DNA of 64,000 nt from positions 35,808,001 to 35,872,000 of the forward strand of contig CP086569.2 in the NCBI GenBank assembly GCA_009914755.4, given 5' to 3'. This document shows, in pieces, positions 17,674 through 41,800 of this stretch (positions are counted from its first letter, which is position 1; each line of letters starts with the position of its first letter). Source of the stretch: the human T2T-CHM13v2.0 reference genome, Homo sapiens. Under the pieces are notes generated by a model, which was not told the DNA's origin, made no database searches, and was given only the letters and a program-made list of their open reading frames with translations. A program made the translations under genes and the position numbers.

Positions 17674-20600
17674 GACTGGAATGGAATGTTCTCGAAGTGA
17701 ATGGACTCCAATGGAATGGATTCGAAAGGAATGGAATCTAATGGAATGGAATTAAATGGAAATGAATCAAATTGAATAGAACGGAATTGAATTGAATGGA
17801 ATCGAATGCAATGGAATCTAATGAAAAGGAAAGGAAAGGAATGGAATGGATTGGAATGGAATGGGCTGGAATGGAATGGAATCGAAACGAATGGAATGGA
17901 ATCGAACTGAAGAGACTGGAATGGAATGCACTGGAATGGAAGGGAATGTAATGGAAGGTTCTCAAGAAAAATGGAATCGAAAGGAATGGAATTGAATGGA
18001 ACGGAATAGAGTCGAATGGAATTCAATTGAATGGAATGGACTAGAGTGAAATGGAATCGAACCACAAGGAATGGACAGGAATAGAATGGTCTCGAATTGA
18101 ATGGAATCGTATGGAATGGCATCAAACGGAATGGAATGGACAGCCACGGAATGGAATGCACTCGAATGCAATGGAGTCGACACTAACGGAGTGGAATAGA
18201 ATGGACTCGACTGGTACGGACTCCAATGGAATGGAATCGAATGGAAGGGTATCGAACGGAATGGACTCGAAGGGAAAAGACTGCAATGGAAAGGTCTCGA
18301 ATGGAATGGAAATTAATGGAATGGAATGGAATCGAATGAAATGGAGTCAAAAGGAATGGAATCGAATGGCAAGAAATCGAATGTAATGGAATCGCAAGGA
18401 ATTGAAGTGAACGGAACGGAATGCAATGGAATCCAAAGGAATGGAATAGAATGGAATGGAATCGAATGGAAAGGACTCGAATGGAAATCACTCGAATAGA
18501 ATGCAATTTAATAAAATAGGATCAAATGTAATGGAATGGAATGGAAAGGAATCGAAACGAAAGGAATGGAGACAGATGGAATGGAATGGAACAGAGAGCA
18601 ATGGTATAGAATGGAATGGAATCATCTGGAATGGAATTGAATGGAATGGAATAATATGAAATGGAATGGAATGGAATGGAATGCCCTTGAATTAAATGGA
18701 CTGGAATGGAATGGACTCGAACAGAGTGGAATGGAAAGTGTTGAAATAGAATGGAATGGACTCGTTTGGAATGGTCTAGTATGCAATGCAATCGACTGGC
18801 AGGGAATCAAAAGGAATGTAATCGAATGGATTGGACTGGAATGCAATGGACTCGAATAGATTGGAAACGGAAAGCAAAGGAATGGAATGGAATAGTATGG
18901 AATGGAATGGAAAGGAATGGAGTGGAATAGACTAGAGTGGAATGGAATGGACTGGAAAGCAATGGACTGGAATGGAACTTTCTTGAATGGACTGGAATCA
19001 AACGGAATGGAATGCAATGCAATCAAATGGCATGGAATAAAATAGAATGAAAGAGAATCAAATGGAATTGAATCGAATGGAATCGAATGGATTGGAAAGG
19101 AATAGAATGGAATGGAACGGAATTGACTCAAATGGAATGGACTAGAATGGAATGGATTCGAATGGAAGGCAAATGAATGGAATCTATTGGAATGGACTGT
19201 AATGGAATGGAATGGAAGGGATTGGAATGGACTCGAATAGAATGGACTGCAATAGAAAGGATTCGAATGGAATGAAAAAGAATTGAATGAAATAGAAGAG
19301 AATGGAAACAAATCGAATGAAATGGAATGGAAGAGAAAGGAATGGAATGAAATGGAATGGAAAGGATTCGAATGGAATGCAATCGAATGGAATGGAATCG
19401 AACGGAATGGAATAAAATGGAAGAAAACTGGCAAGAAATGGAATCGAAATGAATGGAGTGTTATGGAACGGACTCAAAAGGAATTGAATGTAATAGAATG
19501 GAGTGGAGTGGACTCGAATATAATGGACTGGAATGGAATGAAATCACATGGAATGGGAACGAATGGAATGGAATGGAAAGGAATGGAATCGAATGGAAAG
19601 GAATCGAATGGAAGGGAATGAAATTGAATCAACAGGAATGGAAGGGAGTAGAATAGACGGTAATGGAATGGACTCGAATAGAATGGACACGAATGCTCAA
19701 ATTGAATGGACTCGAATGGAATGGAAACGAAAGGAATGTCATCGAATGGAATTGAATCGATTGGAATGAAATCGCATAGAATGGAGTGGAATCAAATGGA
19801 ATTGAATCGAAAGGAAAGGAAGCGAATGGACTGAAATGAAATGGAATGGAATTGAATGGAAAGTAATGCAATGGAATAGAATGGAACGAAATTTCACGGA
19901 ATGGAATCAAACTGAATGGAATCAAATCAATGGAATATAATCAAATGGAATGGAAAGGAATTGAACGGAGTAGATTGGATTGGATGGGATTGGAATGAAA
20001 TGTACTGGAAAGGACTCGAAATTCATGAAACGGAATGGAATGAACTGGAACGGAATGGAATCGAATGGAATGGAATGTCATGTAATGGCATCAAATGGAA
20101 TGGAATCGAATGCGATGGAATGCTATGGAATGGAATGGAATGCATAGGAATGGAATGTCCTCTAATGGAATGTATTCGAGTGGAATGGAATCGAATATAA
20201 TGCAGTCTAATGAAATGGAATTGAAAGGAATGGGACCGAATACAATGGAATAAACTGGAATGTAATGTAATGAACTCGAATGTAATTGACTGGAATGGAA
20301 TGTACATGAATGGAATGTAATCGCATGGAAAGCAATCCAATGGAATAGAATCTAATGCAATAAAATCGACTCAAATAGAGTAGAATGTAATGGAATGGAG
20401 TGCAGTGCAATGGAATGGAATGGAATGCAACGGAATGGAATGGAATGGAATGGAATGGGATGGAATGGTATGGAATGGATAGTAATGGACTGGAGTGAAA
20501 TGGACTGGAAAAGAATGGACTCAAATTGAAAGGGCTCGAAAGGAATGGAGTCAAATGGAATGGTCTGGAATGGAATGAACACGAATGTAATGCAATCCAA

Positions 20601-21187
20601 TAGAATGGAATCGAATGGCATAGAATATAAAGAAATGGAATCGAAGAGAATGGAAACAAATGGAATGGAATTGAATGGAATGGAATTGAATGGAATGGGA
20701 ACGAATGGAGTGAAATTGTATGCAGTAGAAGAGAATAGAATGGAATGCAAGCGAAAGGAAAGGAATGGATTGGAATGGAATGGAATTCATTGGAATGGAA
20801 GGGAATGTAGTGTAATGGACAGGCCTGGAATAAAGTGGAATGCTACGGTCTCGAATGGAATAAAAATGTATGGAATGGAATGCAATGAAACGGAATCGAA
20901 TGTCATAGAATGTAATGGAATGCAAAAAAATGGAATCCAAAATCATTGACTGGAAAGGCTGGGTGTCGAAAGGAATTGACTCCAATGGAATGGAATCGAA
21001 TGGAATGGAAGTGAATAGAATCGAACTAAATCGAATGGAATGGAATTGATAGGAACGGAATGGAAAGGAATGCAATGATTTGGCATGGAATGGAATCGAA
21101 AGGCATCGAATGGAATGGAATGGAATGCAATGGAATGGAATGTATTAGAATGTAATGAACATTAATGGAAAGTACTCGAATGGATTC
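17674..21187 (+). repeat. HSat3 HOR copy 6 (3514 bp), subtype D
   Basis: Same landmarks. The unit tail (about 19.9 kb onward) begins the 10,591-bp-offset identity block. Confidence 0.85.
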
Positions 21188-24100
21188 GACTGGAATGGAA
21201 TGTTCTGGAAGTGAATGGACTCCAATGGAATGGATTCGAAAGGAATGGAATCGAACGGAATGGAATTAAACGGAAATGAATCAAATAGAATAGAACGGAA
21301 TTGAATTGAATGGAATCGAATGCAATGGAATCTAATGAAACGGAAAGGAATGGAATGGAATGGGCTGGAATGGAATGGAATCGAAACGAATGGAATGGAA
21401 TCGAACTGAAGAGACTGGAATGGAATGCACTGGAATGGAAGGGAATGTAATGGAAGGTTCTCGAAAAAAATGGAATCGAAAGGAATGGAATTGAATGGAA
21501 CGGAATAGAGTCGAATGGAATTCAATGGAATGGAATGGACTAGAGTGAAATGGAATCGAACCACAAGGAATGGACAGGAATAGAATGGTCTCGAATTGAA
21601 TGGAATCTTATGGAATGGCATCAAACGGAATGGAATGGACGGCCACGGAATGGAATGCACTCGAATGCAATGGAGTCGAAACTAATGGACTGGAATAGAA
21701 TGGACTCGACTGGTACGGACTCCAATGGAATGGAATCGAATGGAAGGGAATCGAACGGAATGGACTCGAAGGGAAAAGACTGCAATGGAAAGGTCTCGAA
21801 TGGAATGGAAATTAATGGAATGGAATGGAATCGAATGAAATGGAGTCAAAAGGAATGGAATCGAATGGCAAGAAATCGAATGTAATGGAATCGCAAGGAA
21901 TTGATGTGAACGGAACGGAATGGAATGGAATCCAAAGGAATGGAATAGAATGGAATGGAATCGAATGGAAAGGACTCGAATGGAAATCACTCGAATAGAA
22001 TGCAATTTAATAAAATAGGATCAAATGTAATGGAATGGAATGGAAAGGAATCGAAACGAAAGGAATGGAGACAGATGGAATGGAATGGAACAGAGAGCAA
22101 TGGTATAGAATGGAATGGAATCATCTGGAATGGAATTGAATGGAATGGAATAATATGAAATGGAATGGAATGGAATGGAATACCCTTGAATTAAATGGAC
22201 TGGAATGGAATGGACTCGAACAGAGTGGAATGGAAAGTGTTGAAATAGAATGGAATGGACTCGTTTGGAATGGTCTAGTATGCAATGCAATCGACTGGCA
22301 GGGAATCAAAAGGAATGTAATCGAATGGATTGGACTGGAATGCAATGGACTCGAATAGATTGGAAACGGAAAGCAAAGGAATGGAATGGAATAGTATGGA
22401 ATGGAATGCAAAGGAATGGAGTGGAATAGACTAGAGTGGAATGGAATGGACTGGAAAGCAATGGACTGGAATGGAACTTTCTTGAATGGACTGGAATCAA
22501 ACGGAATGGAATGCAATGCAATCAAATGGCATGGAATAAAATAGAATGAAAGAGAATCAAATGGAATTGAATCGAATGGAATCGAATGGATTGGAAAGGA
22601 ATAGAATGGAATGGAATGGAATTGACTCAAATGGAATGGACTAGAATGGAATGGATTCGAATGGAAGGCAAAGGAATGGAATCTATTGGAATGGACTGTA
22701 ATGGAATGGAATGGAAGGGATTGTAATGGACTCGAATGGAATGGACTGCAGTAGAAAGGATTCGAATGGAATGAAAAAGAATTGAATGGAATAGAACAGA
22801 ATGGAATCAAATCGAATGAAATGGAATGGAATAGAAAGGAATGGAATGAAATGGAATGGAAAGGATTCGAATGGAATGCAATCGAATGGAATGAAATCGA
22901 ATGGAATGGAATCGAACGGAATGGAATAAAATGGAAGAAAACTGGCAAGAAATGGAATCGAAATGAATGGAGTGTTACGGAACGGACTCAAAAGGAATTG
23001 AATGTAATAGAATGGAGTGGAGTGGACTCGAATATAATGGACTAGAATGGAATGAAATCACATGGAATGGGAACGAATGGAATGGAATGGAAAGGAATGG
23101 AATCGAATGGAAAGGAATCGAATGGAAGGGAATGAAATTGAATCAACAGGAATGGAAGGGAGTAGAATAGACGGTAATGGAATGGACTCGAATAGAATGG
23201 ACACGAATGCTCAAATTGAATGGACTCGAATGGAATGGCAACGAAAGGAATGTCATCGAATGGAATTGAATCGTTGGAATGAAATCACATAGAATGGAGT
23301 GGAATCAAATGGAATTGAATCGAAAGGAAAGGAAGCGAATGGACTGAAATGAAATGGAATGGAATTGAATGGAAATTAATGCAATGGAATAGAATGGAAC
23401 GAAATTTCACGGAATGGAATCAAACTGAATGGAATCAAATCAATGGAATATAATCAAATGGAATGGAAAGGAATTGAATGGAGTAGATTGGATTGGATGG
23501 GATTGGAATGAAATGTACTGGAAAGGACTCGAATTTCATGAAACGGAATGGAATGAATTAGAACGGAATGGACTCGAATGGAATGGAATGTCATGGAATG
23601 GCATCAAATGGAATGGAATCGAATGCAATGGAATGCTTTGGAATGGAATGGAATGCATTGGAATGGAATGTCCTCTAATGGAATGTATTCGAGTGGAATG
23701 GAATCGAATATAATGGAGTCTAATGAAATGGAATTGAAAGGAATGGGACCGAATACAATGGAATATACTGGAATGTAATGTAATGAACTCGAATGTAATT
23801 GACTGGAATGGAATGTACATGAATGGAATGTAATCGAATGGAAAGCAATCCAATGGAATAGAATCTAATGCAATAAAATCGACTCAAATAGAGTAGAATG
23901 TAATGGAATGGAGTGCAGTGCAATGGAATGGAATGGAATGGAATGCAATGGAATGGAATGGAATGGAATGGGATGGAATGGTATGGAATGGATAGTAATG
24001 GACTGGAGTGAAATGGACTGGAAAAGAATGGACTCAAATTGAAAGGGCTCGAAAGGAATGGAGTCAAATGGAATGGTCTGGACTGGAATGAACACGAATG

Positions 24101-24700
24101 TAATGCAATCCAATAGAATGGAATCGAATGGCATGGAATATAAAGAAATGGAATCGAAGAGAATGGAAACAAATGGAATGGAATTGAATGGAATGGAATT
24201 GAATGGAATGGGAACGAATGGAGTGAAATTGTATGCAGTAGAAGAGAATAGAATGGAATGCAAGCGAAAGGAAAGGAATGGATTGGAATGGAATGGAATT
24301 CATTGGAATGGAAGGGAATGTAGTGTAATGGACAGGCCTGGAATAAAGTGGAATGCTACGGTCTCGAATGGAATAAAAATGTATGGAACGGAATGCAATG
24401 AAACGGAATCGAATGTCATAGAATGTAATGGAATGCAAAAAAATGGACTCCAAAATCATTGACTGGAAAGGCTGGGTGTCGAAAGGAATTGACTCCAATG
24501 GAATGGAATCGAATGGAATGGAAGTGAATAGAATCGAACTAAATCGAATGGAATGGAATTGATAGGAACGGAATGGAAAGGAATGCAATGATTTGGCATG
24601 GAATGGAATCGAATGGCATCGAATGGAATGGAATGGAATGCAATGGAATGGAATGTATTAGAATGTAATGAACTTTAATGGAATGTACTCGAATGGATTC
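21188..24700 (+). repeat. HSat3 HOR copy 7 (3513 bp), subtype D
   Basis: Near-identical to copy 10 at offset +10,591. Confidence 0.85.
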
Positions 24701-27700
24701 GACTGGAATGGAATGTTCTCGAAGTGAATGGACTCCAATGGAATGGATTCGAAAGGAATGGAATCTAATGGAATGGAATTAAATGGAAATGAATCAAATT
24801 GAATAGAACGGAATTGAATTGAATGGAATCGAATGCAATGGAATCTAATGAAACGGAAAGGAAAGGAATGGAATGGATTGGAATGGAATGGGCTGGAATG
24901 GAATGGAATCGAAACGAATGGAATGGAATCGAACTGAAGAGACTGGAATGGAATGCACTGGAATGGAAGGGAATGTAATGGAAGGTTCTCGAAAAAAATG
25001 GAATCGAAAGGAATGGAATTGAATGGAACGGAATAGAGTCGAATGGAATTGAATGGAATGGAATGGACTAGAGTGAAATGGAATCGAACCACAAGGAATG
25101 GACAGGAATAGAATGGTCTCGAATTGAATGGAATCGTATGGAATGGCATCAAACGGAATGGAATGGACAGCCACGGAATGGAATGGACACCCACGGAATG
25201 GAATGCACTCGAATGCAATGGAGTCGACACTAATGGACTGGAATAGAATGGACTCGACTGGTACGGACTCCAATGGAATGGAATCGAATGGAAGGGAATC
25301 GAAAGGAATGGACTCGAAGGGAAAAGACTGCAATGGAAAGGTCTCGAATGGAATGGAAATTAATGGAATGGAATGGAATCGAATGAAATGGAGTCAAAAG
25401 GAATGGAATCGAATGGCAAGAAATCGAATGTAATGGAATCGCAAGGAATTGATGTGAACGGAACGGAATGGAATGGAATCCAAAGGAATGGAATAGAATG
25501 GAATGGAATCGAATGGAAAGGACTCGAATGGAAATCACTCGAATAGAATGCAATTTAATAAAATAGGATCAAATGTAATGGAATGGAATGGAAAGGAATC
25601 GAAACGAAAGGAATGGAGACAGATGGAATGGAATGGAACAGAGAGCAATGGTATAGAATGGAATGGAATCATCTGGAATGGAATTGAATGGAATGGAATA
25701 ATATGAAATGGAATGGAATGGAATGGAATGCCCTTGAATTAAATGGACTGGAATGCAATGGACTCGAACAGAGTGGAATGGAAAGTGTTGAAATAGAATG
25801 GAATGGACTCGTTTGGAATGGTCTAGTATGCAATGCAATCGACTGGCAGGGAATCAAAAGGAATGTAATCGAATGGATTGGACTGGAATGCAATGGACTC
25901 GAATAGATTGGAAGCGGAAAGCAAAGGAATGGAATGGAATAGTATGGAATGGAATGCAAAGGAATGGAGTGGAATAGACTAGAGTGGAATGGAATGGACT
26001 CGAAAGCAATGGACTGGAATGGAACTTTCTTGAATGGACTGGAATCAAACGGAATGGAATGCAATGCAATCAAATGGCATGGAATAAAATAGAATGAAAG
26101 AGAATCAAATGGAATTGAATCGAATGGAATCGAATGGATTGGAAAGGAATAGAATGGAATGGAATGGAATTGACTCAAATGGAATGGACTAGAATGGAAT
26201 GGATTCGAATGGAAGGCAAAGGAATGGAATCTATTGGAATGGACTGTAATGGAATGGAATGGAAGGGATTGGAATGGACTCGAATGGAATGCGCTGCAAT
26301 AGAAAGGATTCGAATGGAATGAAAAAGAATTGAATGGAATAGAACAGAATGGAATCAAATCGAATGAAATGGAATGGAATAGAAAGGAATGCAATGAAAT
26401 GGAATGGAAAGGATTCCAATGGAATGCAATCGAATGGAATGAAATCGATTGGAATGGAATCGAACGGAATGGAATAAAATGGAAGAAAACTGGCAAGAAA
26501 TGGAGTCGAAATGAATGGAGTGTTATGGAACGGACTCAAAAGGAATTGAATGTAATAGAATGGAGTGGAGTGGACTCGAATATAATGGACTGGAGTGGAA
26601 TGAAATCACATGGAATGGGAACGAATGGAATGGAATGGAAAGGAATGGAATCGAATGGAAAGGAATCGAATGGAAGGGAATGAAATTGAATCAACAGGAA
26701 TGGAAGGGAGTAGAATCGACGGTAATGGAATGGACTCGAATAGAATGGACACGAATGCTCAAATTGAATGGACTCGAATGGAATGGAAACGAAAGGAATG
26801 TCATCGAATGGAATTGAATCGATTGGAATGAAATCACATAGAATGGAGTGGAATCAAATGGAATTGAATCGAAAGGAAAGGAAGCGAATGGACTGAAATG
26901 AAATGGAATGGAATTGAATGGAAATTAATGCAATGGAATAGAATGGAACGAAATTTCACGGAATGGAATCAAACTGAATGGAATCAAATCAATGGAATAT
27001 AATCAAATGGAATGGAAAGGAATTGAATGGAGTAGATTGGATTGGATGGGATTGGAATGAAATGTACTGGAAAGGACTCGAATTTCATGAAACGGAATGG
27101 AATGAATTAGAACGGAATGGACTCGAATGGAATGGAATGTCATGGAATGGCATCAAATGGAATGGAATCGAATGCGATGGAATGCTATGGAATGGAATGG
27201 AATGCATTGGAATGGAATGTCCTCTAATGGAATGGATTCGAGTGGAATGGAATCGAATATAATGGAGTCTAATGAAATAGAATTGAAAGGAATGGGACCG
27301 AATACAATGGAATATACTGGAATGTAATGTAATGAACTCGAATGTAATTGACTGGAATGGAATGTACGTGAATGGAATGTAATCGAATGGAAAGCAATCC
27401 AATGGAATAGAATCTAATGCAATAAAATCGAGTCAAATAGAGTAGAATGTAATGGAATGGAGTGCAGTGCAATGGAATGGAATGGAATGGAATGCAATGG
27501 AATGGAATGGAATGGGATGGAATGGTATGGAATGGATAGTAATGGACTGGAGTGAAATGGACTGGAAAAGAATGGACTCAAATTGAAAGGGCTCGAAAGG
27601 AATGGAGTCAAATGGAATGGTCTGGAATGGAATGAACACGAATGTAATGCAATCCAATAGAATGGAATCGAATGGCATGGAATATAAAGAAATGGAATCG

Positions 27701-28244
27701 AAGAGAATGGAAACAAATGGAATGGAATTGAATGGAATGGAATTGAATGGAATGAGAACGAATGGAGTGAAATTGTATGCAGTAGAAGAGAATAGAATGG
27801 AATGCAAGCGAAAGGAAAGGAATGGATTGGAATGGAATGGAATTCATTGGAATGGAAGGGAATGTAGTGTAATGGACAGGCCTGGAATAAAGTGGAATGC
27901 TACGGTCTCGAATGGAATAAAAATGTATGGAATGGAATGCAATGAAACGGAATCGAATGTCATAGAATGTAATGGAATGCAAAAAAATGGAATCCAAAAT
28001 CATTGACTGGAAAGGCTGGGTGTCGAAAGGAATTGACTCCAATGGAATGGAATCGAATGGAATGGAAGTGAATAGAATCGAACTAAATCGAATGGAATGG
28101 AATTGATAGGAACGGAATGGAAAGGAATGCAATGATTTGGCATGGAATGGAATCGAATGGCATCGAATGGAATGGAATGGAATGCAATGGAATGGAATGT
28201 ATTAGAATGTAATGAACTTTAATGGAATGTACTCGAATGGATTC
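24701..28244 (+). repeat. HSat3 HOR copy 8 (3544 bp), subtype B
   Basis: Near-identical to copy 11 at offset +10,591. Resembles copies 2 and 13. Confidence 0.85.
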
Positions 28245-31200
28245 GACTGGAATGGAATGTTCTCGAAGTGAACGGACTCCAATGGAATGGATTCGAAAGG
28301 AATGGAAACTAATGGAATGGAATTAAACGGAAATGAATCAAATAGAATAGAACGGAATTGAATTGAATGGAATCGAATGCAATGGAATCTAATGAAACGG
28401 AAAGGAATGGAATGGAATGGGCTGGAATGGAATGGAATCGAAACGAATGGAATGGAATCGAACTGAAGAGACTGGAATGGAATGCACTGGAATGGAAGGG
28501 AATGTAATGGAAGGTTCTCGAAAAAAATGGAATCGAAAGGAATGGAATTGAATGGAACGGAATAGAGTCGAATGGAATTGAATGGAATGGAATGGACTAG
28601 AGTGAAATGGAATCGAACCACAAGGAATGGACAGGAATAGAATGGTCTCGAATTGAATGGAATCGTATGGAATGGCATCAAACGGAATGGAATGGACAGC
28701 CACGGAATGGAATGGACACCCACGGAATGGAATGCACTCGAATGCAATGGAGTCGACACTAATGGACTGGAATAGAATGGACTCGACTGGTACGGACTCC
28801 AATGGAATGGAATCGAATGGAAGGGAATCGAAAGGAATGGACTCGAAGGGAAAAAACTGCAATGGAAAGGTCTCCAATGGAATGGAAATTAATGGAATGG
28901 AATGGAATCGAATGAAATGGAGTCAAAAGGAATGGAATCGAATGGCAAGAAATCGAATGTAATGGAATCGCAAGGAATTGATGTGAACGGAACGGAATGG
29001 AATGGAATCCAAAGGAATGGAATAGAATGGAATGGAATCGAATGGAAAGGACTCGAATGGAAATCACTCGAATAGAATGCAATTTAATAAAATAGGATCA
29101 AATGTAATGGAATGGAATGGAAAGGAATCGAAACGAAAGGAATGGAGACAGATGGAATGGAATGGAACAGAGAGCAATGGTATAGAATGGAATGGAATCA
29201 TCTGGAATGGAATTGAATGGAATGGAATAATATGAAATGGAATGGAATGGAATGGAATGCCCTTGAATTAAATGGACTGGAATGCAATGGACTCGAACAG
29301 AGTGGAATGGAAAGTGTTGAAATAGAATGGAATGGACTCGTTTGGAATGGTCTAGTATGCAATGCAATCGACTGGCAGGGAATCAAAAGGAATGTAATCG
29401 AATGGATTGGACTGGAATGCAATGGACTCGAATAGATTGGAAACGGAAAGCAAAGGAATGGAATGGAATAGTATGGAATGGAATGGAAAGGAATGGAGTG
29501 GAATAGACTAGAGTGGAATGGAATGGACTCGAAAGCAATGGACTGGAATGGAACTTTCTTGAATGGACTGGAATCAAACGGAATGGAATGCAATGCAATC
29601 AAATGGCATGGAATAAAATAGAATGAAAGAGAATCAAATGGAATTGAATCGAATGGAATCGAATGGATTGGAAAGGAATAGAATGGAATGGAATGGAATT
29701 GACTCAAATGGAATGGACTAGAATGGAATGGATTCGAATGGAAGGCAAAGGAATGGAATCTATTGGAATGGACTGTAATGGAATGGAATGGAAGGGATTG
29801 GAATGGACTCGAATGGAATGGACTGCAGTAGAAAGGATTCGAATGGAATGAAAAAGAATTGAATGGAATAGAACAGAATGGAATCAAATCGAATGAAATG
29901 GAATGGAATAGAAAGGAATGGAATGAAATGGAATGGAAAGGATTCGAATGGAATGCAATCGAATGGAATGCAATCGAATGGAATGGAATCGAACGGAATG
30001 GAATAAAATGGAAGAAAACTGGCAAGAAATGGAATCGAAATGAATGGAGTGTTATGGAACGGACTCAAAAGGAATTGAATGTAATAGAATGGAGTGGAGT
30101 GGACTCGAATATAATGGACTGGAATGGAATGAAATCACATGGAATGGGAACGAATGGAATGGAATGGAAAGGAATGGAATCGAATGCAAAGGAATCGAAT
30201 GGAAGGGAATGAAATTGAATCAACAGGAATGGAAGGGAGTAGAATAGACGGTAATGGAATGGACTCGAATAGAATGGACACGAATGCTCAAATTGAATGG
30301 ACTCGAATGGAATGGAAACGAAAGGAATGTCATCGAATGGAATTGAATCGATTGGAATGAAATCACATAGAATGGAGTGGAATCAAATGGAATTGAATCG
30401 AAAGGAAAGGAAGCGAATGGACTGAAATGAAATGGAATGGAATTGAATGGAAAGTAATGCAATGGAATAGAATGGAACGAAATTTCACGGAATGGAATCA
30501 AACTGAATGGAATCAAATCAATGGAATATAATCAAATGGAATGGAAAGGAATTGAACGGAGTAGATTGGATTGGATGGGATTGGAATGAAATGTACTGGA
30601 AAGGACTCGAAATTCATGAAACGGAATGGAATGAACTGGAACGGAATGGAATCGAATGGAATGGAATGTCATGTAATGGCATCAAATGGAATGGAATCGA
30701 ATGCGATGGAATGCTATGGAATGGAATGGAATGCATAGGAATGGAATGTCCTCTAATGGAATGTATTCGAGTGGAATGGAATCGAATATAATGCAGTCTA
30801 ATGAAATGGAATTGAAAGGAATGGGACCGAATACAATGGAATAAACTGGAATGTAATGTAATGAACTCGAATGTAATTGACTGGAATGGAATGTACATGA
30901 ATGGAATGTAATCGCATGGAAAGCAATCCAATGGAATAGAATCTAATGCAATAAAATCGACTCAAATAGAGTAGAATGTAATGGAATGGAGTGCAGTGCA
31001 ATGGAATGGAATGGAATGCAACGGAATGGAATGGAATGGAATGGAATGGGATGGAATGGTATGGAATGGATAGTAATGGACTGGAGTGAAATGGACTGGA
31101 AAAGAATGGACTCAAATTGAAAGGGCTCGAAAGGAATGGAGTCAAATGGAATGGTCTGGAATGGAATGAACACGAATGTAATGCAATCCAATAGAATGGA

Positions 31201-31778
31201 ATCGAATGGCATAGAATATAAAGAAATGGAATCGAAGAGAATGGAAACAAATGGAATGGAATTGAATGGAATGGAATTGAATGGAATGGGAACGAATGGA
31301 GTGAAATTGTATGCAGTAGAAGAGAATAGAATGGAATGCAAGCGAAAGGAAAGGAATGGATTGGAATGGAATGGAATTCATTGGAATGGAAGGGAATGTA
31401 GTGTAATGGACAGGCCTGGAATAAAGTGGAATGCTACGGTCTCGAATGGAATAAAAATGTATGGAATGGAATGCAATGAAACGGAATCGAATGTCATAGA
31501 ATGTAATGGAATGCAAAAAAATGGAATCCAAAATCATTGACTGGAAAGGCTGGGTGTCGAAAGGAATTGACTCCAATGGAATGGAATCGAATGGAATGGA
31601 AGTGAATAGAATCGAACTAAATCGAATGGAATGGAATTGATAGGAACGGAATGGAAAGGAATGCAATGATTTGGCATGGAATGGAATCGAAAGGCATCGA
31701 ATGGAATGGAATGGAATGCAATGGAATGGAATGTATTAGAATGTAATGAACATTAATGGAAAGTACTCGAATGGATTC
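28245..31778 (+). repeat. HSat3 HOR copy 9 (3534 bp), subtype A
   Basis: The head carries the gaacggactcc variant. Copy 1 at offset 28,244 matches over the first ~2.2 kb. The first ~1 kb is identical to copy 12, and the remainder matches copy 12 at lower identity. Confidence 0.85.
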
Positions 31779-34700
31779 GACTGGAATGGAATGTTCTGGA
31801 AGTGAATGGACTCCAATGGAATGGATTCGAAAGGAATGGAATCGAACGGAATGGAATTAAACGGAAATGAATCAAATAGAATAGAACGGAATTGAATTGA
31901 ATGGAATCGAATGCAATGGAATCTAATGAAACGGAAAGGAATGGAATGGAATGGGCTGGAATGGAATGGAATCGAAACGAATGGAATGGAATCGAACTGA
32001 AGAGACTGGAATGGAATGCACTGGAATGGAAGGGAATGTAATGGAAGGTTCTCGAAAAAAATGGAATCGAAAGGAATGGAATTGAATGGAACGGAATAGA
32101 GTCGAATGGAATTCAATGGAATGGAATGGACTAGAGTGAAATGGAATCGAACCACAAGGAATGGACAGGAATAGAATGGTCTCGAATTGAATGGAATCGT
32201 ATGGAATGGCATCAAACGGAATGGAATGGACGGCCACGGAATGGAATGCACTCGAATGCAATGGAGTCGAAACTAATGGACTGGAATAGAATGGACTCGA
32301 CTGGTACGGACTCCAATGGAATGGAATCGAATGGAAGGGAATCGAACGGAATGGACTCGAAGGGAAAAGACTGCAATGGAAAGGTCTCGAATGGAATGGA
32401 AATTAATGGAATGGAATGGAATCGAATGAAATGGAGTCAAAAGGAATGGAATCGAATGGCAAGAAATCGAATGTAATGGAATCGCAAGGAATTGATGTGA
32501 ACGGAACGGAATGGAATGGAATCCAAAGGAATGGAATAGAATGGAATGGAATCGAATGGAAAGGACTCGAATGGAAATCACTCGAATAGAATGCAATTTA
32601 ATAAAATAGGATCAAATGTAATGGAATGGAATGGAAAGGAATCGAAACGAAAGGAATGGAGACAGATGGAATGGAATGGAACAGAGAGCAATGGTATAGA
32701 ATGGAATGGAATCATCTGGAATGGAATTGAATGGAATGGAATAATATGAAATGGAATGGAATGGAATGGAATACCCTTGAATTAAATGGACTGGAATGGA
32801 ATGGACTCGAACAGAGTGGAATGGAAAGTGTTGAAATAGAATGGAATGGACTCGTTTGGAATGGTCTAGTATGCAATGCAATCGACTGGCAGGGAATCAA
32901 AAGGAATGTAATCGAATGGATTGGACTGGAATGCAATGGACTCGAATAGATTGGAAACGGAAAGCAAAGGAATGGAATGGAATAGTATGGAATGGAATGC
33001 AAAGGAATGGAGTGGAATAGACTAGAGTGGAATGGAATGGACTGGAAAGCAATGGACTGGAATGGAACTTTCTTGAATGGACTGGAATCAAACGGAATGG
33101 AATGCAATGCAATCAAATGGCATGGAATAAAATAGAATGAAAGAGAATCAAATGGAATTGAATCGAATGGAATCGAATGGATTGGAAAGGAATAGAATGG
33201 AATGGAATGGAATTGACTCAAATGGAATGGACTAGAATGGAATGGATTCGAATGGAAGGCAAAGGAATGGAATCTATTGGAATGGACTGTAATGGAATGG
33301 AATGGAAGGGATTGTAATGGACTCGAATGGAATGGACTGCAGTAGAAAGGATTCGAATGGAATGAAAAAGAATTGAATGGAATAGAACAGAATGGAATCA
33401 AATCGAATGAAATGGAATGGAATAGAAAGGAATGGAATGAAATGGAATGGAAAGGATTCGAATGGAATGCAATCGAATGGAATGAAATCGAATGGAATGG
33501 AATCGAACGGAATGGAATAAAATGGAAGAAAACTGGCAAGAAATGGAATCGAAATGAATGGAGTGTTACGGAACGGACTCAAAAGGAATTGAATGTAATA
33601 GAATGGAGTGGAGTGGACTCGAATATAATGGACTAGAATGGAATGAAATCACATGGAATGGGAACGAATGGAATGGAATGGAAAGGAATGGAATCGAATG
33701 GAAAGGAATCGAATGGAAGGGAATGAAATTGAATCAACAGGAATGGAAGGGAGTAGAATAGACGGTAATGGAATGGACTCGAATAGAATGGACACGAATG
33801 CTCAAATTGAATGGACTCGAATGGAATGGCAACGAAAGGAATGTCATCGAATGGAATTGAATCGTTGGAATGAAATCACATAGAATGGAGTGGAATCAAA
33901 TGGAATTGAATCGAAAGGAAAGGAAGCGAATGGACTGAAATGAAATGGAATGGAATTGAATGGAAATTAATGCAATGGAATAGAATGGAACGAAATTTCA
34001 CGGAATGGAATCAAACTGAATGGAATCAAATCAATGGAATATAATCAAATGGAATGGAAAGGAATTGAATGGAGTAGATTGGATTGGATGGGATTGGAAT
34101 GAAATGTACTGGAAAGGACTCGAATTTCATGAAACGGAATGGAATGAATTAGAACGGAATGGACTCGAATGGAATGGAATGTCATGGAATGGCATCAAAT
34201 GGAATGGAATCGAATGCAATGGAATGCTTTGGAATGGAATGGAATGCATTGGAATGGAATGTCCTCTAATGGAATGTATTCGAGTGGAATGGAATCGAAT
34301 ATAATGGAGTCTAATGAAATGGAATTGAAAGGAATGGGACCGAATACAATGGAATATACTGGAATGTAATGTAATGAACTCGAATGTAATTGACTGGAAT
34401 GGAATGTACATGAATGGAATGTAATCGAATGGAAAGCAATCCAATGGAATAGAATCTAATGCAATAAAATCGACTCAAATAGAGTAGAATGTAATGGAAT
34501 GGAGTGCAGTGCAATGGAATGGAATGGAATGGAATGCAATGGAATGGAATGGAATGGAATGGGATGGAATGGTATGGAATGGATAGTAATGGACTGGAGT
34601 GAAATGGACTGGAAAAGAATGGACTCAAATTGAAAGGGCTCGAAAGGAATGGAGTCAAATGGAATGGTCTGGAATGGAATGAACACGAATGTAATGCAAT

Positions 34701-35291
34701 CCAATAGAATGGAATCGAATGGCATGGAATATAAAGAAATGGAATCGAAGAGAATGGAAACAAATGGAATGGAATTGAATGGAATGGAATTGAATGGAAT
34801 GGGAACGAATGGAGTGAAATTGTATGCAGTAGAAGAGAATAGAATGGAATGCAAGCGAAAGGAAAGGAATGGATTGGAATGGAATGGAATTCATTGGAAT
34901 GGAAGGGAATGTAGTGTAATGGACAGGCCTGGAATAAAGTGGAATGCTACGGTCTCGAATGGAATAAAAATGTATGGAACGGAATGCAATGAAACGGAAT
35001 CGAATGTCATAGAATGTAATGGAATGCAAAAAAATGGACTCCAAAATCATTGACTGGAAAGGCTGGGTGTCGAAAGGAATTGACTCCAATGGAATGGAAT
35101 CGAATGGAATGGAAGTGAATAGAATCGAACTAAATCGAATGGAATGGAATTGATAGGAACGGAATGGAAAGGAATGCAATGATTTGGCATGGAATGGAAT
35201 CGAATGGCATCGAATGGAATGGAATGGAATGCAATGGAATGGAATGTATTAGAATGTAATGAACTTTAATGGAATGTACTCGAATGGATTC
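31779..35291 (+). repeat. HSat3 HOR copy 10 (3513 bp), subtype D
   Basis: Twin of copy 7. Confidence 0.85.
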
Positions 35292-38200
35292 GACTGGAAT
35301 GGAATGTTCTCGAAGTGAATGGACTCCAATGGAATGGATTCGAAAGGAATGGAATCTAATGGAATGGAATTAAATGGAAATGAATCAAATTGAATAGAAC
35401 GGAATTGAATTGAATGGAATCGAATGCAATGGAATCTAATGAAACGGAAAGGAAAGGAATGGAATGGATTGGAATGGAATGGGCTGGAATGGAATGGAAT
35501 CGAAACGAATGGAATGGAATCGAACTGAAGAGACTGGAATGGAATGCACTGGAATGGAAGGGAATGTAATGGAAGGTTCTCGAAAAAAATGGAATCGAAA
35601 GGAATGGAATTGAATGGAACGGAATAGAGTCGAATGGAATTGAATGGAATGGAATGGACTAGAGTGAAATGGAATCGAACCACAAGGAATGGACAGGAAT
35701 AGAATGGTCTCGAATTGAATGGAATCGTATGGAATGGCATCAAACGGAATGGAATGGACAGCCACGGAATGGAATGGACACCCACGGAATGGAATGCACT
35801 CGAATGCAATGGAGTCGACACTAATGGACTGGAATAGAATGGACTCGACTGGTACGGACTCCAATGGAATGGAATCGAATGGAAGGGAATCGAAAGGAAT
35901 GGACTCGAAGGGAAAAGACTGCAATGGAAAGGTCTCGAATGGAATGGAAATTAATGGAATGGAATGGAATCGAATGAAATGGAGTCAAAAGGAATGGAAT
36001 CGAATGGCAAGAAATCGAATGTAATGGAATCGCAAGGAATTGATGTGAACGGAACGGAATGGAATGGAATCCAAAGGAATGGAATAGAATGGAATGGAAT
36101 CGAATGGAAAGGACTCGAATGGAAATCACTCGAATAGAATGCAATTTAATAAAATAGGATCAAATGTAATGGAATGGAATGGAAAGGAATCGAAACGAAA
36201 GGAATGGAGACAGATGGAATGGAATGGAACAGAGAGCAATGGTATAGAATGGAATGGAATCATCTGGAATGGAATTGAATGGAATGGAATAATATGAAAT
36301 GGAATGGAATGGAATGGAATGCCCTTGAATTAAATGGACTGGAATGCAATGGACTCGAACAGAGTGGAATGGAAAGTGTTGAAATAGAATGGAATGGACT
36401 CGTTTGGAATGGTCTAGTATGCAATGCAATCGACTGGCAGGGAATCAAAAGGAATGTAATCGAATGGATTGGACTGGAATGCAATGGACTCGAATAGATT
36501 GGAAGCGGAAAGCAAAGGAATGGAATGGAATAGTATGGAATGGAATGCAAAGGAATGGAGTGGAATAGACTAGAGTGGAATGGAATGGACTCGAAAGCAA
36601 TGGACTGGAATGGAACTTTCTTGAATGGACTGGAATCAAACGGAATGGAATGCAATGCAATCAAATGGCATGGAATAAAATAGAATGAAAGAGAATCAAA
36701 TGGAATTGAATCGAATGGAATCGAATGGATTGGAAAGGAATAGAATGGAATGGAATGGAATTGACTCAAATGGAATGGACTAGAATGGAATGGATTCGAA
36801 TGGAAGGCAAAGGAATGGAATCTATTGGAATGGACTGTAATGGAATGGAATGGAAGGGATTGGAATGGACTCGAATGGAATGCGCTGCAATAGAAAGGAT
36901 TCGAATGGAATGAAAAAGAATTGAATGGAATAGAACAGAATGGAATCAAATCGAATGAAATGGAATGGAATAGAAAGGAATGCAATGAAATGGAATGGAA
37001 AGGATTCCAATGGAATGCAATCGAATGGAATGAAATCGATTGGAATGGAATCGAACGGAATGGAATAAAATGGAAGAAAACTGGCAAGAAATGGAGTCGA
37101 AATGAATGGAGTGTTATGGAACGGACTCAAAAGGAATTGAATGTAATAGAATGGAGTGGAGTGGACTCGAATATAATGGACTGGAGTGGAATGAAATCAC
37201 ATGGAATGGGAACGAATGGAATGGAATGGAAAGGAATGGAATCGAATGGAAAGGAATCGAATGGAAGGGAATGAAATTGAATCAACAGGAATGGAAGGGA
37301 GTAGAATCGACGGTAATGGAATGGACTCGAATAGAATGGACACGAATGCTCAAATTGAATGGACTCGAATGGAATGGAAACGAAAGGAATGTCATCGAAT
37401 GGAATTGAATCGATTGGAATGAAATCACATAGAATGGAGTGGAATCAAATGGAATTGAATCGAAAGGAAAGGAAGCGAATGGACTGAAATGAAATGGAAT
37501 GGAATTGAATGGAAATTAATGCAATGGAATAGAATGGAACGAAATTTCACGGAATGGAATCAAACTGAATGGAATCAAATCAATGGAATATAATCAAATG
37601 GAATGGAAAGGAATTGAATGGAGTAGATTGGATTGGATGGGATTGGAATGAAATGTACTGGAAAGGACTCGAATTTCATGAAACGGAATGGAATGAATTA
37701 GAACGGAATGGACTCGAATGGAATGGAATGTCATGGAATGGCATCAAATGGAATGGAATCGAATGCGATGGAATGCTATGGAATGGAATGGAATGCATTG
37801 GAATGGAATGTCCTCTAATGGAATGGATTCGAGTGGAATGGAATCGAATATAATGGAGTCTAATGAAATAGAATTGAAAGGAATGGGACCGAATACAATG
37901 GAATATACTGGAATGTAATGTAATGAACTCGAATGTAATTGACTGGAATGGAATGTACGTGAATGGAATGTAATCGAATGGAAAGCAATCCAATGGAATA
38001 GAATCTAATGCAATAAAATCGAGTCAAATAGAGTAGAATGTAATGGAATGGAGTGCAGTGCAATGGAATGGAATGGAATGGAATGCAATGGAATGGAATG
38101 GAATGGGATGGAATGGTATGGAATGGATAGTAATGGACTGGAGTGAAATGGACTGGAAAAGAATGGACTCAAATTGAAAGGGCTCGAAAGGAATGGAGTC

Positions 38201-38835
38201 AAATGGAATGGTCTGGAATGGAATGAACACGAATGTAATGCAATCCAATAGAATGGAATCGAATGGCATGGAATATAAAGAAATGGAATCGAAGAGAATG
38301 GAAACAAATGGAATGGAATTGAATGGAATGGAATTGAATGGAATGAGAACGAATGGAGTGAAATTGTATGCAGTAGAAGAGAATAGAATGGAATGCAAGC
38401 GAAAGGAAAGGAATGGATTGGAATGGAATGGAATTCATTGGAATGGAAGGGAATGTAGTGTAATGGACAGGCCTGGAATAAAGTGGAATGCTACGGTCTC
38501 GAATGGAATAAAAATGTATGGAATGGAATGCAATGAAACGGAATCGAATGTCATAGAATGTAATGGAATGCAAAAAAATGGAATCCAAAATCATTGACTG
38601 GAAAGGCTGGGTGTCGAAAGGAATTGACTCCAATGGAATGGAATCGAATGGAATGGAAGTGAATAGAATCGAACTAAATCGAATGGAATGGAATTGATAG
38701 GAACGGAATGGAAAGGAATGCAATGATTTGGCATGGAATGGAATCGAATGGCATCGAATGGAATGGAATGGAATGCAATGGAATGGAATGTATTAGAATG
38801 TAATGAACTTTAATGGAATGTACTCGAATGGATTC
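35292..38835 (+). repeat. HSat3 HOR copy 11 (3544 bp), subtype B
   Basis: Twin of copy 8. Confidence 0.85.
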
Positions 38836-41800
38836 GACTGGAATGGAATGTTCTCGAAGTGAACGGACTCCAATGGAATGGATTCGAAAGGAATGGAAAC
38901 TAATGGAATGGAATTAAACGGAAATGAATCAAATAGAATAGAACGGAATTGAATTGAATGGAATCGAATGCAATGGAATCTAATGAAACGGAAAGGAATG
39001 GAATGGAATGGGCTGGAATGGAATGGAATCGAAACGAATGGAATGGAATCGAACTGAAGAGACTGGAATGGAATGCACTGGAATGGAAGGGAATGTAATG
39101 GAAGGTTCTCGAAAAAAATGGAATCGAAAGGAATGGAATTGAATGGAACGGAATAGAGTCGAATGGAATTCAATGGAATGGAATGGACTAGAGTGAAATG
39201 GAATCGAACCACAAGGAATGGACAGGAATAGAATGGTCTCGAATTGAATGGAATCGTATGGAATGGCATCAAACGGAATGGAATGGACAGCCACGGAATG
39301 GAATGGACACCCACGGAATGGAATGCACTCGAATGCAATGGAGTCGACACTAATGGACTGGAATAGAATGGACTCGACTGGTACGGACTCCAATGGAATG
39401 GAATCGAATGGAAGGGAATCGAAAGGAATGGACTCGAAGGGAAAAAACTGCAATGGAAAGGTCTCCAATGGAATGGAAATTAATGGAATGGAATGGAATC
39501 GAATGAAATGGAGTCAAAAGGAATGGAATCGAATGGCAAGAAATCGAATGTAATGGAATCGCAAGGAATTGATGTGAACGGAACGGAATGGAATGGAATC
39601 CAAAGGAATGGAATAGAATGGAATGGAATCGAATGGAAAGGACTCGAATGGAAATCACTCGAATAGAATGCAATTTAATAAAATAGGATCAAATGTAATG
39701 GAATGGAATGGAAAGGAATCGAAACGAAAGGAATGGAGACAGATGGAATGGAATGGAACAGAGAGCAATGGTATAGAATGGAATGGAATCATCTGGAATG
39801 GAATTGAATGGAATGGAATAATATGAAATGGAATGGAATGGAATGGAATGCCCTTGAATTAAATGGACTGGAATGCAATGGACTCGAACAGAGTGGAATG
39901 GAAAGTGTTGAAATAGAATGGAATGGACTCGTTTGGAATGGTCTAGTATGCAATGCAATCGACTGGCAGGGAATCAAAAGGAATGTAATCGAATGGATTG
40001 GACTGGAATGCAATGGACTCGAATAGATTGGAAATGGAAAGCAAAGGAATGGAATGGAATAGTATGGAATGGAATGCAAAGGAATGGAGTGGAATAGACT
40101 AGAGTGGAATGGAATGGACTCGAAAGCAATGGACTGGAATGGAACTTTCTTGAATGGACTGGAATCAAACGGAATGGAATGCAATGCAATCAAATGGCAT
40201 GGAATAAAATAGAATGAAAGAGAATCAAATGGAATTGAATCGAATGGAATCGAATGGATTGGAAAGGAATAGAATGGAATGGAATGGAATTGACTCAAAT
40301 GGAATGGACTAGAATGGAATGGATTCGAATGGAAGGCAAAGGAATGGAATCTATTGGAATGGACTGTAATGGAATGGAATGGAAGGGATTGGAATGGACT
40401 CGAATGGAATGGACTGCAGTAGAAAGGATTCGAATGGAATGAAAAAGAATTGAATGGAATAGAACAGAATGGAATCAAATCGAATGAAATGGAATGGAAT
40501 AGAAAGGAATGGAATGAAATGGAATGGAAAGGATTCGAATGGAATGCAATCGAATGGAATGCAATCGAATGGAATGGAATCGAACGGAATGGAATAAAAT
40601 GGAAGAAAACTGGCAAGAAATGGAATCGAAATGAATGGAGTGTTATGGAACGGACTCAAAAGGAATTGAATGTAATAGAATGGAGTGGAGTGGACTCGAA
40701 TATAATGGACTGGAATGGAATGAAATCACATGGAATGGGAACGAATGGAATGGAATGGAAAGGAATGGAATCGAATGCAAAGGAATCGAATGGAAGGGAA
40801 CGAAATTGAATCAACAGGAATGGAAGGGAGTAGAATAGACGGTAATGGAATGGACTCGAATAGAATGGACACGAATGCTCAAATTGAATGGACTCGAATG
40901 GAATGGAAACGAAAGGAATGTCATCGAATGGAATTGAATCGATTGGAATGAAATCACATAGAATGGAGTGGAATCAAATGGAATTGAATCGAAAGGAAAG
41001 GAAGCGAATGGACTGAAATGAAATGGAATGGAATTGAATGGAAATTAATTCAATGGAATAGAATGGAACGAAATTTCACGGAATGGAATCAAACTGAATG
41101 GAATCAAATCAATGGAATATAATCAAATGGAATGGAAAGGAATTGAATGGAGTAGATTGAATTGGATGGGATTGGAATGAAATGTACTGGAAAGGACTCG
41201 AATTTCATGAAACGGAATGGAATGAATTAGAACGGAATGGACTCGAATGGAATGGAATGTCATGGAATGGCATCAAATGGAATGGAATCGAATGCGATGG
41301 AATGCTATGGAATGGAATGGAATGCATTGGAATGGAATGTCCTCTAATGGAATGTATTCGAGTGGAATGGAATCGAATATAATGGAGTCTAATGAAATGG
41401 AATTGAAAGGAATGGGACCGAATACAATGGAATATACTGGAATGTAATGTAATGAACTCGAATGTAATTGACTGGAATGGAATGTACATGAATGGAATGT
41501 AATCGAATGGAAAGCAATCCAATGGAATAGAATCTAATGCAATAAAATCGACTCAAATAGAGTAGAATGTAATGGAATGGAGTGCAGTGCAATGGAATGG
41601 AATGGAATGGAATGCAATGGAATGGAATGGAATGGAATGGGATGGAATGGTATGGAATGGATAGTAATGGACTGGAGTGAAATGGACTGGAAAAGAATGG
41701 ACTCAAATTGAAAGGGCTCGAAAGGAATGGAGTCAAATGGAATGGTCTGGAATGGAATGAACACGAATGTAATGCAATCCAATAGAATGGAATCGAATGG

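What the first reader, a model, noticed from the sequence alone, without database searches (positions are those of the whole stretch)
19900..39791. Very recent three-unit (10,591-bp) tandem duplication whose identity boundaries lie inside HOR units
About 9.3 kb from roughly 19.9 to 29.2 kb is reproduced at +10,591 bp with no amino-acid-level difference in any six-frame translation. Flanking sequence at the same offset is only about 99% similar. The boundaries near 19.9 kb and 29.2 kb are not at HOR junctions. The exchange points were therefore internal to units, possibly gene conversion tracts.
Basis: seen in the sequence. Interest (0 to 1): 0.6.

Follow-up and report, generated by a model that had tools for sequence, protein, structure and literature searches.

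The report
Recent three-unit duplication in DYZ1 satellite
A 10.6-kb stretch (three repeat units) of the human Y-chromosome DYZ1 satellite was copied in tandem by one out-of-register exchange; this is the ordinary, already described way such arrays grow, not a new phenomenon.

Summary
The window is 18 units (3,504-3,554 bp) of a GGAAT-based satellite that passes every sequence test I could apply for human DYZ1/HSat3A6. The duplicate is 19,775-30,365 against 30,366-40,956, exactly one period, with 6 substitutions. Other three-unit comparisons at lag 3 that do not overlap the duplicate show 92-145 substitutions. Unit U9 (28,274-31,807) is a clean hybrid. It follows U12 at 77 of 80 informative columns to the left of an 88-bp interval (30,366-30,453), and follows U6 at 23 of 23 to the right. 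So the two "boundaries" are one crossover point seen twice. This is the signature of a single three-unit out-of-register exchange, most likely between sister chromatids, and not of a gene-conversion tract. A break inside a unit is the expected case, because unit phase is a convention. Two other hybrid units in the window (U15, U17) have junctions at other in-unit positions. With the published Yq12 mutation rate the event dates to roughly 22,000 years (8,000-48,000). A second, equally recent tract (1-9,292 = 38,836-48,127) shares parent U12. The process is already known, so interest is low.

The parts
19775..30365 (.). Copy 1 of the 10,591-bp tandem duplication (right part of U6, then U7, U8, then left part of U9)
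   Evidence: Fixed-offset comparison, BLAST. There are 6 substitutions against copy 2.
30366..40956 (.). Copy 2 of the duplication (right part of U9, then U10, U11, then left part of U12)
   Evidence: Same as copy 1. Unit lengths 3513+3544+3534 repeat exactly. U8 and U11 are identical, and U7 and U10 differ at 2 sites.
28274..31807 (.). U9, the hybrid junction unit: left part derived from U12, right part derived from U6
   Evidence: Three-way comparison: 77 of 80 informative columns on the left match U12 and 23 of 23 on the right match U6. Two of the three left exceptions are private U12 mutations.
30366..30453 (.). Crossover interval: 88 bp in which the parents U6 and U12 are identical. The outer bound is 30188-30453 if site 30210/40801 is not a later U12 mutation.
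   Evidence: Flanking informative sites are 30365 (U9=U12) and 30454 (U9=U6). One search gives a tie for the alternative switch position. The sequence is ordinary degenerate pentamers.
19775..19862 (.). The same crossover interval in upstream parent U6 (U6 = 17703-21216)
   Evidence: 19774 G against A, and 19863 G against T in U12.
40957..41044 (.). The same crossover interval in downstream parent U12 (U12 = 38865-42398)
21608..21608 (.). Post-duplication substitution private to U7 (T; the other 17 units have G). A second one is at 24083 (C; the others have A).
40035..40035 (.). Post-duplication substitution private to U12 (CpG C>T; partner site 29444). A second one is at 40801 (T>C; partner site 30210). 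U1 keeps the ancestral base at both.
28580..28580 (.). U9 carries G, an allele shared with U2, U8, U11 and U13. At 29486, U9 carries G, shared with U4-U6 and U15-U18. Both look like one-site gene-conversion patches or recurrent mutations.
   Evidence: In a pedigree, 29% of Yq12 de novo SNVs matched non-orthologous copies (PMC12240836).
1..9292 (.). A second recent tract, nearly identical to 38836-48127 (offset 38,835 = 11 units) and cut by the window start. It shares parent U12 with the three-unit duplication.
   Evidence: 3 differences in 1-9038, then 3 clustered differences at 9039-9155, then divergence from 9293.

Best explanation
The window is part of a human Y-chromosome DYZ1 (HSat3A6) array. 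In an ancestor the array read ...U5 U6 U7 U8 U12 U13.... Two copies of the array paired three units out of register. They were most likely sister chromatids, because this region has no homologue to recombine with. A single homologous crossover then occurred between U12 on one copy and U6 on the other, inside an 88-bp stretch where the two units were identical (unit-alignment columns 2122-2209). The product gained 10,591 bp: U6 U7 U8 [U12-left/U6-right = U9] U10 U11 U12. The two copies have since picked up four private point mutations (two in U7, two in U12). U9 also acquired two single-site changes that match alleles of other units, which look like short gene-conversion patches. What is shown: the duplicate structure, its exact length, the hybrid unit with one parental switch, and the low divergence. 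What is inferred: that the partners were sister chromatids, that the event was a crossover rather than replication-based template switching (which gives the same product), and the date of about 730 generations (270-1,600), or about 22,000 years, using the Yq12 pedigree rate.
For: DYZ1 identity: GGAAT pentamer base and an approximately 3.53-kb period. GC is 38.7%, there is 1 CpG per 33.9 bp, and one conserved HaeIII site per unit, matching the published 38% and 1 CpG per 35 bp. Eight published DYZ1 primers hit about once per unit at the published distances from the HaeIII site (primers from PMC3925983). Duplication: the tract at +10,591 runs 19775-30453, which is the period plus the 88 bp in which the parents are identical. 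There are 6 differences in 10,591 bp, against 92-145 in other lag-3 triples that do not overlap the duplicate. U9 shows a single switch, 77/80 then 23/23. Median lag-3 divergence (0.94%) is no lower than for all pairs (1.08%), so there was no pre-existing three-unit super-repeat to convert. [quoted passage not shown] About one whole-unit de novo structural variant arises per Y transmission, and the Yq12 SNV rate is 3.86e-7 per bp per generation (PMC12240836).
Against: Nothing contradicts the model, but there are limits. Four of the 6 differences lie in the last 2.1 kb of the tract, U9-left against U12-left (binomial P=0.016; KS P=0.067), which is mildly non-uniform. Two of those four are conversion-like. 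The crossover position has a tied alternative (30188-30210) if the U12-private C at 40801 predates the event. No reads were available, so a false duplication introduced by the assembler is not formally excluded. The date changes more than tenfold with the rate used: about 280,000 years at a euchromatic rate. The chromosomal origin (Y) rests on sequence hallmarks only.
Confidence: 0.85

Rival explanations
1. Long-tract gene conversion: a pre-existing, about 1%-diverged three-unit paralogue was overwritten by its neighbour without any change in array length.
For: Gene conversion does operate in Yq12: 29% of de novo SNVs match non-orthologous copies. Two of the six differences here look like one-site conversion patches.
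Against: The tract equals exactly one period, and both ends fall in the same inter-informative-site interval of the unit. The probability of that for independent ends is about 0.04, before also requiring a length of three units. A 10.6-kb tract is far longer than usual mammalian conversion tracts (general knowledge). Lag-3 divergence elsewhere is at background level, so no three-unit paralogy is visible that could have been converted.
Confidence: 0.04
2. Assembly artefact: the assembler falsely duplicated about 10.6 kb of a near-identical satellite.
For: Satellite arrays are the regions most prone to mis-assembly. No read data could be examined here.
Against: The two copies differ at six sites. 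Four of these are private derived states and two are alleles shared with other units, whereas a falsely duplicated block would normally be identical. The junction unit is a clean recombinant of two real neighbouring units. Other hybrid units of different ages occur in the same window.
Confidence: 0.06
3. Replication-based duplication: fork collapse with break-induced replication or template switching re-initiated three units back. This gives the same tandem product without a reciprocal crossover.
For: The product is indistinguishable in sequence from an unequal crossover, with one homology-mediated junction. The overlapping 38,835-bp tract that shares parent U12 and has a similar age could fit a multi-step template-switching episode.
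Against: No microhomology-only junction, inserted bases or inverted segment is present. The junction lies in long homology, as expected for homologous exchange. Sister chromatid exchange is directly observed in Yq12.
Confidence: 0.1
4. An emerging or ancient three-unit (10.6-kb) super-higher-order repeat that is being homogenised across the array.
For: Remnants of an older three-unit event exist. There is an extra HaeIII site in U4, U7 and U10, and a shared right-half haplotype in U3, U6 and U9, at offset 10,570.
Against: Median lag-3 divergence (0.94%) is the same as at other lags (1.00-1.32%). Triples at lag 3 away from the duplicate differ at 92-145 sites. Only two copies are near-identical.
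Confidence: 0.03

Closest known systems
Tandem duplications by unequal exchange in the Yq12 DYZ1/DYZ2 heterochromatin (T2T-Y, Rhie et al., bioRxiv 10.1101/2022.12.01.518724; Hallast et al., bioRxiv 10.1101/2022.12.01.518658)
   Same: Same satellite, same proposed mechanism (unequal exchange, with sister chromatid exchange seen in Yq12), and the same outcome of local expansion and homogenisation inside arrays.
   Different: Those papers describe the pattern at the scale of arrays up to 5 Mb, using dot plots and identity heat maps. Here a single three-unit event is resolved to an 88-bp crossover interval, with its hybrid unit and its six later changes.
De novo whole-unit structural variants and gene-conversion-like SNVs in Yq12 in a four-generation pedigree (Porubsky et al., Nature 2025, PMC12240836)
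   Same: Gain or loss of whole satellite units at about one event per Y transmission, plus point changes that match other copies (29%). Here 2 of the 6 differences match other units.
   Different: The five pedigree events affected DYZ2 units and measured 2.4-4.8 kb. This event is in DYZ1, spans three units (10.6 kb), and is hundreds to thousands of generations old rather than de novo.
Unequal-crossover model of tandem-repeat evolution (Smith 1976; cited from my own knowledge) and localised expansion within alpha-satellite HOR arrays
   Same: Out-of-register exchange at integer multiples of the unit creates hybrid units and blocks of near-identical neighbours. The window holds three clear hybrid junction units: U9, U15 and U17.
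   Different: This is a pentamer-derived 3.5-kb unit on a non-recombining chromosome, so the partners must be sister chromatids or the same chromatid.

Membership tests
DYZ1 / HSat3A6 satellite of human Yq12 | Tandem unit of about 3.5-3.6 kb built from diverged copies of the pentamer CATTC/TTCCA (GGAAT on the other strand) | tested here: met
   There are 18 units of 3,504-3,554 bp. 59% of bases lie in exact GGAAT-rotation pentamers. TRF reports periods of 5n. Definition taken. The units are 10-65 bp shorter than the canonical 3,564/3,569 bp.
DYZ1 / HSat3A6 satellite of human Yq12 | One HaeIII (GGCC) site per unit, giving the classical ~3.5-kb HaeIII fragment | tested here: met
   One conserved GGCC per unit; fragments are 3,504-3,554 bp. 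U4, U7 and U10 carry one extra site. Criterion.
DYZ1 / HSat3A6 satellite of human Yq12 | Base composition of about 38% G+C and about 1 CpG per 35 bp | tested here: met
   38.7% G+C and 1 CpG per 33.9 bp, against the published values.
DYZ1 / HSat3A6 satellite of human Yq12 | Published DYZ1 primer sites present in the published order and spacing | tested here: met
   All 8 primers of PMC3925983 Table 5 hit 13-18 of the 18 units with at most 1 edit. Their median distances from the HaeIII site are 745, 843, 1678, 1679, 2570 and 2629 bp, against published positions 763, 861, 1668, 1669, 2564 and 2637. Two further primers that I recalled from memory hit once per unit and give a 154-bp product. I could not find their source in the library.
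DYZ1 / HSat3A6 satellite of human Yq12 | Located on the Y chromosome (male-specific) and flanked by DYZ2 blocks | not testable with these tools
   No human genome collection is available, and the window contains only this satellite. The 22 public metagenome contigs that match (host contamination) carry no chromosome label.
Tandem duplication by a single out-of-register homologous exchange | Two head-to-tail copies whose near-identity tract equals one period, which is an integer number of units | tested here: met
   The period is 10,591 bp = U7+U8+U9 = U10+U11+U12. The tract is 10,679 bp, which is the period plus the 88 bp where the parents are identical.
Tandem duplication by a single out-of-register homologous exchange | A hybrid unit at the junction with one switch between the downstream parent (left part) and the upstream parent (right part) | tested here: met
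   U9: 77/80 informative columns match U12, then 23/23 match U6. Two of the three exceptions are later private U12 mutations.
Tandem duplication by a single out-of-register homologous exchange | An ancestral or reciprocal allele (three units fewer) exists in related chromosomes | not testable with these tools
   This needs other Y assemblies (HPRC/HGSVC).
Gene-conversion tract | A non-reciprocal patch with independent ends, no change in copy number, and a pre-existing diverged paralogue at the acceptor site | tested here: not met
   The ends coincide in unit phase (P about 0.04), the length equals the period, and no lag-3 paralogy exists outside the block. The test is met only, and inconclusively, for the one-site patches at 28580 and 29486.
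Multi-unit super-higher-order repeat | Raised identity at the multi-unit lag along the array | tested here: not met
   The lag-3 median is 0.94%, against 1.08% for all pairs.

The most novel reading that the evidence does not exclude
The three-unit duplication and the overlapping 38,835-bp tract (1-9,292 = 38,836-48,127) share parent unit U12. Their ages cannot be told apart: U1, the left part of U9 and U12 form an unresolved trifurcation. Both tracts also end in the same part of the unit, roughly 250 bp wide (columns about 1956-2210). They might therefore be products of one complex multi-template event, for example break-induced replication with repeated template switching. Alternatively they might mark a preferred exchange site within the DYZ1 unit, rather than two independent ordinary crossovers.
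Probability: 0.08. Interest if true: 0.35.

Novelty: already known. Interest (0 to 1): 0.12.

Why it matters
The finding matters little beyond serving as an illustration. It is a base-pair-resolved example of the unequal-exchange process that is already held to shape Yq12 and other satellite arrays. It includes a hybrid junction unit, a crossover narrowed to 88 bp, and six later changes, of which about a third look like gene conversion; that proportion agrees with pedigree data. If the three-unit gain is polymorphic among Y haplogroups, it could serve as a local structural marker within one DYZ1 array. It also offers a calibration point for rates of satellite turnover.

Tried and rejected
1. 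I searched the paper library for the two DYZ1 primers I recalled from memory. There were no hits, so I replaced them with eight primers taken from PMC3925983.

2. I made one scan of metagenome contigs using a pattern that left the five diagnostic sites around the junction free. The aim was to count hybrid against parental haplotypes in other people. The 22 contigs returned (23 matches) all carry a single haplotype, GGGTG, which is not found in any unit of the window that the pattern matched. They are short-read collapses of thousands of units. They say nothing about whether this duplication is polymorphic, and are useful only as a rough outgroup.

3. I considered an exchange hotspot at columns 2122-2209. 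The U3 and U9 junctions may coincide, but U3's junction is only bounded to columns 1956-2210. The U15 and U17 junctions lie at columns 2466-2816 and 1018-1077, so this is not supported.

4. I considered whether the crossover was placed in the longest identical stretch between the parents. It was not: longer identical runs exist elsewhere (284 and 253 bp), and the best 500-bp window is at columns 2796-3300.

5. I tested for a three-unit super-repeat across the array and rejected it on divergence by lag.

6. I tested whether the six differences are non-uniformly placed, as a sign of a separate conversion tract. The result is marginal (KS P=0.067; binomial P=0.016). It is no longer significant once the two conversion-like sites are set aside (P=0.18).

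7. The order of the three-unit and eleven-unit events cannot be resolved. U1 has no private change, U12 has two, and the left part of U9 has two.
Full report
**What the window is.** The 64-kb window is strongly strand-asymmetric (A 25,952, G 19,234, T 13,275, C 5,539). It is made of diverged GGAAT pentamers arranged in a higher-order unit of about 3.53 kb. Using a 24-mer anchor that occurs once per unit, I cut the window into 18 complete units, U1 to U18. Their starts are 30, 3564, 7113, 10647, 14160, 17703, 21217, 24730, 28274, 31808, 35321, 38865, 42399, 45948, 49482, 53036, 56565 and 60069. Their lengths range from 3,504 to 3,554 bp.

The window passes every sequence test I could apply for human DYZ1 (HSat3A6).
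- G+C is 38.7% and there is 1 CpG per 33.9 bp. The published values are 38% and 1 per 35 bp (Hallast et al.).
- There is one conserved HaeIII site per unit (criterion).
- All eight DYZ1 primers in Table 5 of PMC3925983 hit about once per unit, at the published distances from the HaeIII site. They hit on the strands expected if the window's + strand is the complement of the TTCCA strand.
- Two further primers that I recalled from memory also hit once per unit and give a 154-bp product. I could not find their source in the library.

Y-chromosomal location cannot be tested with these tools.

**The observation.** At offset +10,591 the sequence is nearly identical from 19,775 to 30,453. Single mismatches occur at 21608, 24083, 28580, 29444, 29486 and 30210.

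The period equals U7+U8+U9 = U10+U11+U12 = 3513+3544+3534 bp. U8 and U11 are identical, and U7 and U10 differ at two sites.

The flanks at the same register differ by 0.9-1.5%. Three-unit blocks compared at lag 3 away from the duplicate differ at 92-145 sites, against 6 in the duplicate's own frame. The probability of six or fewer differences at 1% divergence is 2e-37. BLAST gives the same picture.

**Anatomy.** The decisive test is a three-way comparison of U6, U9 and U12.
- Left of window position 30,365, U9 carries the U12 state at 77 of 80 informative alignment columns.
- From position 30,454 onward, U9 carries the U6 state at 23 of 23 columns.
- Two of the three left-side exceptions (columns 1200 and 1966) are bases private to U12. 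The other 17 units have the alternative base there, including U1, which is otherwise identical to U12. These are therefore later mutations in U12.

U9 is thus a hybrid: U12 on its left, U6 on its right. The switch lies in an 88-bp interval (30,366-30,453) where the parents are identical. There is a tied alternative with the switch at 30,188-30,210. It needs one extra change at 30,365 and is less parsimonious.

The left end of the identity tract (column 2121) and its right end (column 2210) are consecutive informative sites between the parents. The tract length, 10,679 bp, equals the period plus those 88 bp. The two 'boundaries' are one crossover point, seen once in each copy.

**Mechanism.** This is the expected product of a single homologous exchange between two copies of the array paired three units out of register.
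- Ancestral order: ...U6 U7 U8 U12...
- Product: ...U6 U7 U8 [U12-left/U6-right] U7' U8' U12...

The male-specific Y has no homologue, so the partners were most likely sister chromatids. Sister chromatid exchanges are seen in Yq12 in about 15% of Strand-seq libraries, and the T2T-Y authors attribute Yq12 tandem duplications to unequal exchange. A replication-based template switch would leave the same product and cannot be excluded.

Gene conversion of a pre-existing paralogue fits poorly for three reasons.
- A converted tract has independent ends. The chance that both ends fall in the same inter-site interval is about 0.04.
- Nothing in that model would make the tract equal the period.
- Divergence at lag 3 elsewhere (median 0.94%) is no lower than at other lags (1.00-1.32%).

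That the break lies inside a unit carries no information, because the unit start is a convention. U15 is a hybrid of U16-left and U14-right (67 of 71 columns; switch between columns 2466 and 2816). U17 is a hybrid of U18-left and U16-right (142 of 150 columns; switch between columns 1018 and 1077). Junctions fall anywhere in the unit.

The crossover interval itself consists of ordinary degenerate pentamers. It is not the longest identical stretch between the parents.

**After the event.** Four of the six differences are private derived bases.
- Two are in U7: 21608 G>T and 24083 A>C.
- Two are in U12: 40035, a CpG C>T, and 40801, a T>C.

At the other two sites (28580 and 29486), U9 carries an allele that is present in other units. 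This fraction, 2 of 6, agrees with the 29% of Yq12 de novo SNVs that match non-orthologous copies and were ascribed to interlocus gene conversion (PMC12240836).

With that paper's Yq12 rate (3.86e-7 per bp per generation), six differences in 10,591 bp give about 730 generations (95% range 270-1,600). That is roughly 22,000 years (8,000-48,000). A euchromatic rate would give about 280,000 years. The first figure uses the locus-appropriate rate. Either way, 'very recent' is relative. On the first figure the duplication could well be polymorphic among Y lineages.

**Context in the window.** A second tract of similar age was not part of the finding: 1-9,292 matches 38,836-48,127 (offset 38,835, eleven units). 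It has three differences in the first 9,038 bp, then three clustered differences private to U14, and then ordinary divergence from 9,293. The window start cuts it off. It may be the visible end of an 11-unit tandem duplication with U3 as its junction, or it may be a patch.

This tract shares U12 with the three-unit event. U1, the left part of U9 and U12 form an unresolved trifurcation. There are also remnants of an older three-unit event at offset 10,570: an extra HaeIII site in U4, U7 and U10, and a shared right-half haplotype in U3, U6 and U9.

**Related sequences elsewhere.** One scan of metagenome contigs, with a pattern that left the junction's diagnostic sites free, returned 22 contigs, at least one labelled as a human gut metagenome assembly. 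All carry GGGTG at columns 2121/2210/2215/2313/2325, whereas most window units carry ATGTG. These contigs are short-read collapses of thousands of DYZ1 units. They cannot address polymorphism of this duplication.

They do suggest that the window's array is a locally homogenised variant. In the longest contig alignments (for example L018) U5 and U18 are the closest units, at about 98% identity, while units such as U4 and U16 reach about 96%. The window's units are also 10-65 bp shorter than the canonical 3,564/3,569 bp.

**Verdict.** The finding is a real, cleanly resolved three-unit tandem duplication in DYZ1, produced by one out-of-register exchange. The boundary placement, the claim of perfect identity, the weight put on 'internal to units', and the gene-conversion suggestion are not. 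The process and its occurrence in Yq12 are already described, so novelty is nil and interest is low.

Noticed in passing
window 1-9292 and 38836-48127: A second long near-identical pair at offset 38,835 (11 units). It has 3 differences in the first 9,038 bp and is cut by the window start. It shares parent unit U12 with the three-unit duplication and is of similar age. It could be the end of an 11-unit tandem duplication with U3 as its junction.
   Followed up: partly
window 47874, 47944, 47990 (U14): Three U14 differences from U3 within 117 bp, just before the 38,835 tract ends; two are private to U14 and the third (47990) is shared with U7 and U10. This is far more clustered than the 3 differences in the preceding 9 kb. 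They may be a clustered mutation or a conversion from a donor outside the window.
   Followed up: no
window 49482-53035 (U15); tract 48724-52287 = 52278-55841: U15 is a hybrid of U16-left and U14-right (67 of 71 informative columns; switch between columns 2466 and 2816). This is an older one-unit tandem duplication at offset 3,554, with about 0.34% divergence.
   Followed up: partly
window 56565-60068 (U17); tract 54823-57729 = 58327-61233: U17 is a hybrid of U18-left and U16-right (142 of 150 informative columns; switch between columns 1018 and 1077). This is another one-unit event, at offset 3,504.
   Followed up: partly
window 11071, 21641, 32232; and 9293-11200, 19863-21764, 30454-32361: U4, U7 and U10 carry an extra HaeIII (GGCC) site, and U3, U6 and U9 share a right-half haplotype. 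These are remnants of an older three-unit event at offset 10,570, so three-unit slips have recurred here.
   Followed up: partly
whole window; loci L001-L022: Units are 3,504-3,554 bp, shorter than the canonical 3,564/3,569 bp. Twenty-two public metagenome contigs (apparently host DYZ1 contamination) all carry GGGTG at five diagnostic sites, where most window units carry ATGTG. In the longest contig alignments U5 and U18 are the closest units (about 98%) and units such as U4 and U16 reach about 96%. The window's array therefore looks like a locally homogenised, somewhat divergent DYZ1 variant.
   Followed up: partly
window 10647-14159 (U4) and 60069-63586 (U18): U4 and U18 are the most divergent units (1.4-2.5% from all others). 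They share several variants with each other despite lying 14 units apart.
   Followed up: no
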